Part shown: one piece after another, positions 51,839 to 53,292 of the stretch
Layout: each line of letters begins with the position of its first letter
How positions within the stretch are numbered: position 1 is the first letter of the stretch
From: Eledone cirrhosa
Taxonomy: Eukaryota
Assembly (NCBI GenBank): GCA_964016885.1
Contig: OZ024742.1
Coordinates: 339,016,001 to 339,080,000, forward strand
Direction of reading: 5' to 3'
Length of the DNA: 64,000 nt
Notes under the pieces: model-generated
Database searches by the model: none
Told to the model about the DNA's origin: nothing
What the model saw: only the letters and a program-made list of their open reading frames with translations
Made by a program: the position numbers and the translations under genes

Positions 51839-52043
51839 ATACACACACACACACACACACACACACACACACACACACACACACACACACACACACACAC
51901 ACACACACACACACACACACACACACACACACACACACACACACACACACACACACACACACACACACACATATATATATATATATATATATATATGAGA
52001 GACGTAAAATAAGAAAATTATAAAATTTACTTACTAAAATATC

Positions 52044-52125
52044 ACTTCCAACTAATTAGTTTCTGGAATGGAATAAATATATTTTCCGAAGAAGATACAG
52101 AGAAGCATTCCGTCGTCAGGGAAGT
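52044..52125 (-). ncRNA. Type I hammerhead ribozyme (family D)
   Basis: Reverse complement of 52771-52852. Confidence 0.8.
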
Positions 52126-52585
52126 CTATTCTCATCTAAGTATCCAGGCAGAGCGTGGACACTGGAAACTTATTAAAAAATAATTCAGTGGATAGAAAAT
52201 AGCAAAGCGTGGAATGAATTCCTAGCCATTGAGAAAATCACTGCCTCTGCGTCGGTGGCAAATTCAAAAAGAATCAATCACGTGACATCGAGGTCAATCA
52301 GTGGAAAGTGGTTTGCTAATAAGACAGCGGCCTGCCTGCTACCATAGCAGCAGTCATGGCCAATATTGCTCGACAAATAATTTGGAGATAATTATAAAGA
52401 ATTAATATCTAGTAACATATATGTACATACAGATGCATATCAATGCTAGCAAATATATAGGTTTTGTCTTAGTAACTTTGTGGTTAAATGCATGGGGTTG
52501 CAGAACAATAATATGAGAGACGTAAAATAAGAAAATTATAAAATTATAAAATTATAAATTTTAGTAAGTTATTACTAAAATTTCA

Positions 52586-52665
52586 CTCCCAACTAATTAG
52601 TTTCTGAAATGGAATATATATACTTTCCGAAGAAAATATAGAGAATCATTTCGTCGTCAGGGAAG
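52586..52665 (-). ncRNA. Type I hammerhead ribozyme (family D, diverged copy)
   Basis: Core intact; stem II GAAATG/CATTTC versus GGAATG/CATTCC in the other copies; G-U pair in stem I. Confidence 0.8.
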
Positions 52666-52770
52666 ACTATTCTCAGCTAAGTATCCAGGCAAAGCGTGGA
52701 CACTGGAAACTTATTAAAAAATAATTCAGTGGATAAAAATAGCATTGCCTGGATACTTAGATGAGAATAG

Positions 52771-52852
52771 ACTTCCCTGACGACGGAATGCTTCTCTGTA
52801 TCTTCTTCGGAAAATATATTTATTCCATTCCAGAAACTAATTAGTTGGAAGT
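52771..52852 (+). ncRNA. Type I hammerhead ribozyme (family D)
   Basis: ACTTCC-CTGACGA-C GGAATG..CATTCC A-GAAA-CTAATTAG-TT-GGAAGT. Confidence 0.82.
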
Positions 52853-53292
52853 GATATTTTAGTAAGTAAGTTAATTTTATAATTTTCTTATTTTACGTCT
52901 CTCATATTATTGTTCTGCAACCCCATGCATTGAACCACAAAGTTACTAAGACAAAACCTATATATTTGCTAGCATTGATATGCATCTGTATGTATATATA
53001 TGTTACTAGATATTAATTCTTTTTATATATATATATATACATATATATATATATATATATATATATATATATATATATATATATATATATATATATATAT
53101 ATATATGTGAAGTAATTCCGTCGGAAAAGTCCAGGAAAAAAGAGTGCTCTATGTAGGTAACAGAGCTTAATAGTTATGTAATAAACAACATAAGGCAATT
53201 ATTCCATTTACCAGTGGTTTCTTAAAAGCAAAACATTTTGCTTTACATCAACTGCCGTTGAAAATTGCAAACTTGACTGTCACCACTCATTA

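What the first reader, a model, noticed from the sequence alone, without database searches (positions are those of the whole stretch)
51993..53021. Tandem-plus-inverted repeat with three hammerheads and a compensatory base-pair change
Stem II is GGAATG/CATTCC in the copies at 52044 and 52771 but GAAATG/CATTTC at 52586, a double change that keeps pairing. The stem I change gives a tolerated G-U pair and the core is untouched while loop II diverges. This is internal evidence of selection on the RNA fold. A partial tandem plus an inverted copy is the typical PLE pseudo-LTR layout. The two minus-strand sites would release a 541-nt RNA (52050-52590). The inverted arm matches copy 1 in sequence yet spans the copy1/copy2 junction, which suggests a circular or multimeric template.
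Basis: partly seen in the sequence, partly recalled or inferred. Interest (0 to 1): 0.75.

Follow-up and report, generated by a model that had tools for sequence, protein, structure and literature searches.

The report
Non-coding Penelope-like insertion with hammerheads
This is a 1-kb non-coding insertion of a Penelope-like retrotransposon, carrying three copies of its usual self-cleaving RNA motif, in an animal genome where such insertions are common; it is real and tidy but belongs to a known kind.

Summary
The repeat, the three type I hammerheads (HHRs) and the G-C/A-U stem II swap are real.

The locus (51993-53022) has the anatomy of a Penelope-like element (PLE) insertion: a partial tandem (518-nt unit), a head-to-head inverted copy, both RNA 3' ends in (TA)n, and a 115-nt tail on one end only. 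That tail explains the 'junction-spanning' arm without a circle. HHR architecture, (TA)n target and HHR-to-end distance resemble Hydra-clade PLEs (Craig 2021). The host is probably a cephalopod. Five other HHR families lie in the same window.

The selection argument is weak. Only two sequences are independent, since copy 1 equals the inverted arm at 158/158 aligned bases. One compensatory pair arises by chance with p~0.10, an intact core with p~0.25, core plus proximal helices with p~0.02. Two distal stem I pairs break. The HHR differs more than its flanks (11/103 vs 3/221). A single 541-nt circle cannot be the template. Whole-locus transcripts are predicted to fold into a long hairpin that hides the HHRs.

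Verdict: new member of a known kind.

The parts
51835..51996 (.). (CA)n/(TA)n microsatellite; left target flank
   Evidence: the junction overlaps the element end by ATAT
51993..52395 (-). Copy 1, the downstream copy: body + U + HHR1 + D. It lacks the tail and its 3' end lies 57 nt after the cleavage site
52205..52395 (-). Unique ~190-nt non-coding body, where a PLE ORF or 3' UTR would lie. Contains ATTGG (52364) and TCACGTG (52285), promoter-like motifs by recall
   Evidence: Stops in all three sense frames; no Pfam hit in the frames tested; motifs
52033..52135 (-). HHR1, type I: stem I 52120-52125/52044-52049, core 52113-52119, extra C 52112, stem II 52106-52111/52065-52070 with inner UUCG hairpin, extra A 52064, GAAA 52060-52063, palindromic stem III 52051-52060, cleavage after U 52050
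52396..52510 (-). 115-nt 3' tail (X) of the upstream copy
   Evidence: Matches 52908-53022 with 2 internal substitutions
52511..52744 (-). Copy 2, the 5'-truncated upstream copy forming the pseudo-LTR. A diverged variant, with a micro-inversion and short duplications at about 52530-52575
   Evidence: 12 substitutions and 3 indels versus copy 1
52574..52676 (-). HHR2: C3 52660, stem II GAAATG/CATTTC, cleavage after 52591
52745..53022 (+). Inverted 5'-truncated copy, head-to-head with copy 2. Copy-1 type, with tail; 3' end 176 nt after the cleavage site
52761..52863 (+). HHR3, identical to HHR1: C3 52777, cleavage after 52846
53023..53107 (.). (TA)n microsatellite; right target flank

Best explanation
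A young, non-coding insertion made by the RT/GIY-YIG protein of a (TA)n-targeting, Hydra-clade-like Penelope-like element, supplied in trans. Shown by the sequence: both outer ends are RNA 3' ends fused to (TA)n; the 5' ends meet head to head at 52744/52745; the two ends stop 57 and 176 nt after the cleavage site; all three HHRs are crossed intact; copy 2 is a different variant from copy 1 and the inverted arm. Inferred mechanism: the PLE protein cut both strands of a (TA)n tract. Each 3'-OH primed reverse transcription at one of two internal start sites on uncleaved RNA, 115 nt apart (the tail). One cDNA stopped after about 280 nt and became the inverted arm. The other copied D-HHR1-U-body, then continued into a second, diverged unit (tail-D-HHR2-U), either from a tandem precursor or by jumping to another RNA. 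The two cDNAs were then joined. The HHR is the PLE's inherited 3'-terminal type I ribozyme. Its palindromic stem III predicts weak monomer activity and dimer-dependent or protein-assisted cleavage. Within this reading I lean about 55:35 to a short non-autonomous unit (PLE-derived retrozyme) over three truncated 3' ends of an autonomous element. This copy is probably inert.
For: Anatomy. The canonical PLE arrangement (partial tandem, inverted 5'-truncated copy, tail at one end only) is described in PMC8557442 and PMC3846280. The anole PLE protein cleaves and extends both strands, starts RT at two internal sites that define the tail, and uses unprocessed RNA (PMC11167929). Hydra clade: almost all families insert in (TA)n and carry HHRs, and Hydra-1_Obim is from Octopus bimaculoides. 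By my reading of the 26 Hydra rows of File S2, 14 close stem II with U.U, 10 have U at the cleavage position, and stem III is a short near-palindrome. HHR-to-3'-end distances are 30-153 nt in the 23 rows I used: 12 at 30-70 and 11 at 88-153. Two unrelated palindromic HHR insertions in this window show the same two-ended pattern in (TA)n: 38/134 and 49/152 nt. The 10-nt stem III palindrome gives -9.0 kcal/mol as a duplex and 0.0 as a hairpin; the double hammerhead is -168.0 versus -164.7 for two monomers. The unit folds better than shuffles, z=-3.9, 0 of 100. The host is plausibly a cephalopod.
Against: No autonomous partner was found: no GIY-YIG or RT hit among 131 frames outside the LINE region. 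No other copy of this family is in the window (nhmmer). No sequence link to a Hydra element was tested, and the Hydra-1_Obim HHR row differs from this one. The tail is 115 nt, not the 30-40 nt reported. The 176-nt end lies outside the 30-153 range; I left out three rows, one of which (Penelope-2_NV) would give about 355 nt by hand arithmetic. None of the 26 Hydra rows has C.A closure or a 35-nt loop II. A target-site duplication cannot be read in (TA)n. The HHR region alone does not fold better than shuffles (z -0.37 and -0.50). Forced HHR folds lie 8-12 kcal/mol above the free MFE of the 754-nt left-arm RNA. Rfam has no hit.
Confidence: 0.85

Rival explanations
1. Same PLE mechanism, but there is no separate non-autonomous family: the three pieces are 5'-truncated 3' ends of an autonomous PLE, and the 'body' is only its 3' UTR. 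The 518-nt period is then an accident of where RT stopped.
For: PLE insertions are heavily 5'-truncated and tandem. Only one locus of this family is in hand. Families B and E in the window are short truncated palindromes.
Against: At least 200 nt upstream of the HHR are non-coding in all sense frames, while complete Hydra elements are only about 2.1-2.7 kb in all. Family F has about 690 nt between body start and HHR and a similar ATTGGCC near its body start. Whole units fold significantly (z -3.9 and -4.75).
Confidence: 0.35
2. Rolling-circle retrozyme: a ~520-540-nt circular RNA, made by double HHR cleavage and ligation, was reverse-transcribed more than once round, with a switch to a second variant circle near the scar at 52530-52575.
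For: Two consecutive HHR-bearing units meet the working definition of an active non-LTR retrozyme (bioRxiv 10.64898/2026.07.22.740005). A circle would also explain intact cleavage sites. The unit is self-paired. Mussel and coral retrozymes do give circRNAs (PMC7229834). If the 2 tail differences arose after insertion, the tail could be copy-1 type throughout (2/119 vs 0/158, p=0.18).
Against: One circle cannot give two HHR variants 11 substitutions apart. An uncleaved linear template explains the same features with fewer steps. There are only 1.45 units, not an array. Eight of nine predicted Xenopus dimers did not cleave in vitro.
Confidence: 0.1
3. The double change in stem II is not selection but one template-switch event between the two arms of the stem, or chance.
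For: Chance probability is about 0.10. Copy 2 carries a local micro-inversion of the template-switch type 30-50 nt away.
Against: All changes in stems I (proximal), II and III keep pairing, joint p~0.02 with the core. In neighbouring family C, 0 of 13 substitutions fall in the 39-nt HHR (p=0.04). The arms are only 6 bp long and 35 nt apart.
Confidence: 0.3
4. Assembly artefact or DNA-level foldback, with a chance hammerhead-like motif.
For: The locus is flanked by long microsatellites, and such inverted structures trouble assemblies.
Against: The inverted arm matches the distant copy 1, not the adjacent copy 2, so it is not a foldback. Descriptor hits: 8 versus 0.01 expected. The same layout recurs in unrelated families.
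Confidence: 0.02

Closest known systems
Hydra-clade EN+ Penelope-like elements, e.g. Hydra-1_Obim and Penelope-n_HM (Craig et al. 2021, PMC8557442)
   Same: (TA)n target; type I HHR near the 3' end; often one non-paired base on each side at the foot of stem II; short near-palindromic stem III; frequent U at the cleavage position; an inverted 5'-truncated copy in one family.
   Different: No ORF here. Stem II is closed by C.A (U.U in 14 of 26 Hydra rows; C.A appears only in the PLE-X1_cBra rows of that table). Loop II is 35 nt with an inner UUCG hairpin, versus 3-10 nt. The HHR differs from the Hydra-1_Obim row.
Metazoan non-LTR retrozymes (Cervera and de la Pena 2020, PMC7229834; Li et al. 2026 preprint 10.64898/2026.07.22.740005)
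   Same: Non-coding, GC under 50% (34% here), tandem units each with a type I HHR, self-paired RNA, a proposed origin from PLE pLTRs. A mismatch at the base of helix II is known (axolotl HHR_Amex2).
   Different: The unit is 518-541 nt (170-400 in Cervera; within the 51-972 range of Li). Only 1.45 units. It keeps the full PLE integration signature (inverted copy, tail, (TA)n). Expression and circRNA untested.
Canonical PLE insertion structure and PLE hammerheads (Arkhipova 2013 PMC3846280; Cervera 2014 PMC4209133; Frangieh 2024 PMC11167929)
   Same: Partial tandem with a head-to-head inverted pLTR and an optional tail. Pairs of HHRs 100-700 bp apart on opposite strands are already reported, as are the extra base after A9, G10.1-C11.1, a palindromic stem III, compensatory changes and high HHR variability.
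   Different: The tail is 115 nt rather than 30-40. An extra A sits before GAAA (one 'AGAAA' among the 56 rows of Cervera Fig. S3). Stem II carries a long extension.

Membership tests
Type I hammerhead ribozyme | CUGANGA and GAAA core, A15.1-U16.1, NUH site, three helices with open stem I | tested here: met
   the HHR fold is the MFE of the isolated 103 nt of copy 1
Type I hammerhead ribozyme | Helix II stacked directly on the core by pair 10.1-11.1 | tested here: not met
   C.A lies at the foot of stem II. U.U at this position is a known natural variant; C.A occurs in PLE-X1_cBra
Type I hammerhead ribozyme | Match to an Rfam hammerhead model | tested here: not met
   0 hits at gathering; no hammerhead among 16 matches at E<=10
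Type I hammerhead ribozyme | Self-cleavage | not testable with these tools
   Needs an assay
EN+ Penelope-like element | Partial tandem forming a pseudo-LTR | tested here: met
EN+ Penelope-like element | Adjacent inverted 5'-truncated copy, head to head | tested here: met
   Junction at 52744/52745
EN+ Penelope-like element | 3' tail at one end only | tested here: met
   115 nt; longer than the 30-40 nt in the papers read
EN+ Penelope-like element | HHR within the pLTR | tested here: met
   All three copies
EN+ Penelope-like element (autonomous) | ORF with RT and GIY-YIG | tested here: not met
   so not an autonomous element at this locus
EN+ Penelope-like element | Target-site duplication | tested here: inconclusive
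   Both flanks are (TA)n
Hydra clade | Insertion into (TA)n | tested here: met
   Not exclusive: Octopus Naiads also target (TA)n but lack canonical HHRs, and Neptune has a microsatellite bias
Hydra clade | HHR architecture and position near the 3' end as in File S2 | tested here: inconclusive
   Stem III, closing mismatch and the 57-nt end fit; C.A, the long loop II and the 176-nt end do not. Compared by eye
Hydra clade | RT phylogeny and RWK/DKT/CxCX5C motifs | not testable with these tools
   No protein at the locus; no eukaryotic genome collection to find the partner
Hydra clade | Sequence homology to a Hydra consensus 3' end | not tested
   No Hydra consensus was held as a locus
Non-LTR retrozyme | [quoted passage not shown] | tested here: met
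   HHR1 and HHR2, -18.5 and -19.5 kcal/mol; definition. The second unit is partial
Non-LTR retrozyme | Unit size 170-400 nt (Cervera 2020) | tested here: not met
   518-541 nt; inside the 51-972 range of the 2026 preprint
Non-LTR retrozyme | Highly self-paired unit RNA | tested here: met
   z=-3.86 and -3.91, 0 of 100 shuffles each
Non-LTR retrozyme | Expression as linear or circular monomer RNA | not testable with these tools
   No transcript data

The most novel reading that the evidence does not exclude
Cephalopod genomes carry several families of 0.5-1 kb non-autonomous Hydra-type PLEs that still show the full PLE integration signature, an invertebrate link between PLEs and retrozymes. In this family the ribozyme periphery turns over about eight times faster than its flanks (11/103 vs 3/221) while proximal pairing is kept. 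That would point to exchange of ribozyme modules between RNAs, or to RNA-level replication and selection. The C.A-closed, long-stem-II hammerhead would be a regulated, dimer- or protein-switched variant.
Probability: 0.15. Interest if true: 0.6.

Novelty: new member of a known kind. Interest (0 to 1): 0.3.

Why it matters
It is a clean fossil of PLE integration that fits recent in vitro results: two primed strands, two internal RT starts, and an uncleaved template. It also suggests that a genome like this one is rich in such elements: 12 HHR motifs of 6 unrelated families lie between 20 and 57 kb of this window, and Rfam sees none of them at its gathering thresholds. With the whole genome in hand, these families would allow a proper covariation test of PLE hammerheads and a test of the PLE origin of retrozymes outside vertebrates, which the 2026 preprint names as its own gap. 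The locus by itself shows no new mechanism.

Tried and rejected
- Rfam: no hammerhead at gathering or at E<=10.
- The repeat finder over 49-57 kb was swamped by microsatellites; replaced by BLAST.
- Autonomous PLE in the window: 30 long ORFs gave only LINE-type domains (endonuclease, RVT_1, zf-RVT) at 39.5-48.7 kb. 131 shorter frames gave no RT or GIY-YIG, only hits below curated cut-offs.
- The possible ORF end in the body (at most 25 codons) is too short for the protein search and stays unchecked.
- Other copies of the family: none in the window. A 28-nt HHR pattern had 0 matches in GTDB genomes.
- Pol III/SINE origin: no tRNA and no A/B-box motifs in the unit.
- The bacterial promoter scan is at chance, 6 vs 5.9, and is not relevant to an animal host.
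- A-to-I editing as the source of the variant: 4 A/G versus 3 C/T among 12 substitutions, no bias; rejected.
- Foldback origin of the inverted arm: rejected, because it matches copy 1 rather than copy 2.
- The six HHR families share no significant sequence outside the core (best E 0.05).
- In one search the joint figure that also demands an intact inner hairpin (p~0.003) holds in one direction only and was defined after seeing the data; I do not rely on it.
- Lunse et al. 2016 (PMC5785218) is not held; I saw only its citation and the review's summary.
- Searches found no paper on cephalopod retrozymes, on a C10.1/A11.1 hammerhead by those terms, or on non-autonomous Hydra PLEs. The library lacks most subscription papers and Repbase/Dfam entries, so this is weak evidence of absence.

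Full report
1. Observation. The region sits between (CA)n/(TA)n and (TA)n tracts. BLAST of 51993-53025 against the window gives only internal matches: copy 1 (51993-52213) with copy 2 (52511-52753), and an inverted arm from 52746. Copy 1 and the arm agree at 158 of 158 aligned bases with one 4-nt indel. Copy 1 and copy 2 differ at 12 substitutions and 3 indels: 1 of 68 upstream, 11 of 103 in the ribozyme, 0 of 39 downstream. The arm continues to 53022 and matches 52396-52510 with 2 internal differences. Each copy holds a type I hammerhead: stem I, CUGACGA, an extra C, a 6-bp stem II, an extra A, GAAA, the palindrome ACUAAUUAGU, a U at the cleavage position, and stem I. The minus-strand sites are 541 nt apart. 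Rfam reports nothing at gathering level and no hammerhead at E<=10. A strict descriptor, written after I had seen the loose scan, gives 8 hits in 4 families versus a mean of 0.01 in 100 shuffles.

2. How strong is the case for selection? There are two independent sequences only. I placed the same 11 substitutions (6 transitions) at random 100,000 times in each direction. At least one compensatory pair arose in 10%, the core stayed intact in 26% (hypergeometric 0.24), and core plus proximal stem I, stem II and stem III stayed intact in 2%. Two or fewer pairs broke in 13-14%. The ribozyme region is more divergent than its flanks (11/103 versus 3/221, Fisher p=0.0003; p=0.0008 counting a terminal mismatch), so the core is not shown to be more conserved than the flanks. 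Either copy 2 is a mosaic, or the flanks are constrained as promoter and protein-binding sites; this is unexplained. High variability of PLE hammerheads within a genome, with compensatory changes, is already reported (PMC4209133). In neighbouring family C, 0 of 13 substitutions fall in the 39-nt ribozyme (p=0.04). Overall: suggestive, not proof.

3. What it is. Read on the RNA strand, the left arm is a 5'-truncated copy with a 115-nt tail followed by a longer copy without the tail. The right arm is an inverted, 5'-truncated copy with the tail. Both outer ends are 3' ends in (TA)n, 57 and 176 nt after the cleavage site. This is the arrangement described for PLEs: partial tandem, adjacent inverted copy, tail at one end only (PMC8557442; PMC3846280). 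Hammerhead pairs 100-700 bp apart on opposite strands were noted in 2014. The window holds five more, unrelated families: palindromic pairs at 20589/20726 and 56798/56973 with ends 38/134 and 49/152 nt from the site; family C at 26162 and 53298; a 472-nt dimer at 53921/54393; and a 995-nt partial tandem with its ribozyme at 51530. That makes 12 motifs, 8 passing the strict scan and 4 only the loose one. A nearby LINE RT has its best named relatives in Argonauta hians (66%) and Acanthosepion pharaonis (52%); the other listed hits carry no species name. A cephalopod host is therefore an inference. Octopus vulgaris has 31 recently active Penelope-like families (PMC13282606 passages). The Hydra clade inserts in (TA)n, carries hammerheads and includes an Octopus family. 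In its table 14 of 26 rows have a U.U at the foot of stem II, as do families C, D and F here, and 10 have U at the cleavage position (my reading). The distance to the 3' end is 30-153 nt in 23 rows. I dropped three rows: an inverted duplicate, a 5'-located motif, and Penelope-2_NV, which would give about 355 nt. No ORF lies in the element, and no PLE protein remnant was seen in the window.

4. How it most likely works. Inferred by analogy with the anole PLE protein, which cleaves and extends both strands, starts RT at two internal sites that define the tail, and uses unprocessed RNA, its hammerhead cleaving only with protein bound (PMC11167929). Both cut strands of a (TA)n tract primed cDNA on uncleaved RNA at two start sites 115 nt apart. 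The short cDNA became the inverted arm. The long one ran through copy 1 into a second, diverged unit, from a tandem precursor or by a template jump, and the two were joined at 52744/52745. Arkhipova 2013 offers self-priming on an antisense template for palindromic junctions. That suits families B and E, but not this locus, where the arm matches the distant copy. A single circle is excluded because the insertion is young yet holds two variants; a circle plus a switch remains possible (0.1). The ribozyme should be weak alone. Its stem III palindrome has no stable hairpin but forms a -9.0 kcal/mol duplex, and the double hammerhead beats two monomers by 3.3 kcal/mol. U17 can also pair with A14. 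A transcript through the whole locus folds into a hairpin of about -500 kcal/mol with ribozyme helix probabilities of 0.00-0.03. For the left arm alone stem I is 0.51 for HHR1 and 0.0 for HHR2 (equilibrium models, no tertiary contacts). Release of a 541-nt RNA from this locus is therefore doubtful. The unit nevertheless folds better than shuffles (z=-3.9), as retrozyme RNAs do.

5. Comparison and novelty. It works like a PLE insertion and meets the layout tests, but fails the ORF test, so it is a non-coding product. It meets the working definition of a non-LTR retrozyme except for Cervera's size range. Hydra-clade membership is suggested, not shown. Local peculiarities are the C.A closure (seen in PLE-X1_cBra; one AGAAA among 56 rows), the 35-nt structured loop II and the 115-nt tail. 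Searches found no account of cephalopod retrozymes or non-autonomous Hydra elements; 235 hammerhead matches are mentioned for giant squid. New member of a known kind; interest 0.3.

6. Papers seen. 10.64898/2026.07.22.740005: parts 1-3 of 5, supplements not seen. PMC11167929: parts 1-2 of 4. PMC4209133: parts 1-2 of 4, and supplement parts 1-2 of 3 as unformatted text. PMC8557442: passages, section 11, a supplement term search and part 2 of 59. PMC7229834: parts 2-3 of 6. PMC6765202, PMC3088659, PMC13282606, PMC6962438, PMC3846280 and PMC8969392: passages only. Lunse 2016: not held. Promoter and splice motif names (CCAAT box, E-box, GTAAGT donor) are recalled, not from a call.

Noticed in passing
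window 20400-20818: Family B: near-perfect head-to-head palindrome (322 nt, 99.4%) in (TA)n with type I HHRs at 20589(-) and 20726(+); ends 134 and 38 nt after the cleavage sites.
   Followed up: partly
window 56702-57172: Family E: palindrome in (TA)n with HHRs at 56798(-) and 56973(+); ends 49 and 152 nt after the sites. The right arm has a 14-nt duplication across stem III and the cleavage site.
   Followed up: partly
window 26016-26203 and 53108-53446: Family C: two dispersed copies (92%) of a small HHR with U.U closure, very like the Hydra-clade rows; 0 of 13 substitutions in the 39-nt ribozyme.
   Followed up: partly
window 53637-54650: Family D: 472-nt tandem, 2.1 copies, 99% identical, each with a small HHR (54393, 53921, minus strand). 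The most retrozyme-like item in the window.
   Followed up: partly
window 50662-51840: Family F: 995-nt partial tandem with an HHR at 51530(+) whose stem II region is 96 nt, with U.U closure and a GUU site. Its 5' end lies about 12 nt past the equivalent of the cleavage site, which could reflect a cleaved template. The unit folds at z=-4.75, 0 of 20 shuffles.
   Followed up: partly
window 50660-54650: Four unrelated HHR families (F, A, C, D) are chained one after another through (TA)n tracts within 4 kb.
   Followed up: no
window 52530-52575: Copy 2 has a micro-inversion forming a 12-bp hairpin plus short duplications. It destroys a GTAAGT donor-like motif present at 52034 in copy 1.
   Followed up: partly
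window 52364 and about 50853: ATTGGCC near the start of the body in both family A and family F; a possible internal Pol II promoter (motif meaning recalled).
   Followed up: no
window 39156-48917: Two adjacent, frameshifted copies (about 80% identical) of a LINE with endonuclease, RVT_1 and zf-RVT domains; the best named relatives are cephalopod.
   Followed up: partly
window 21428-21545 and 54656-55199: A 118-nt palindrome and a 49-nt exact inverted repeat, each beginning beside a TA run, with no HHR hit; possibly truncated PLE or Naiad-type ends.
   Followed up: no
window 12024-12236, 25508-25731, 32904-33300, 49115-49332: A dispersed ~210-nt repeat family, 72-79% identical, possibly a SINE.
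   Followed up: no
window 1-12019, 16947-17466, 37815-38931, 60036-64000: Satellite arrays with periods of 41, 86, 37 and 38 nt.
   Followed up: no
window 15470-15730: Weak C2H2 zinc-finger match (E 0.001, below the curated cut-off) in an 87-aa frame.
   Followed up: no
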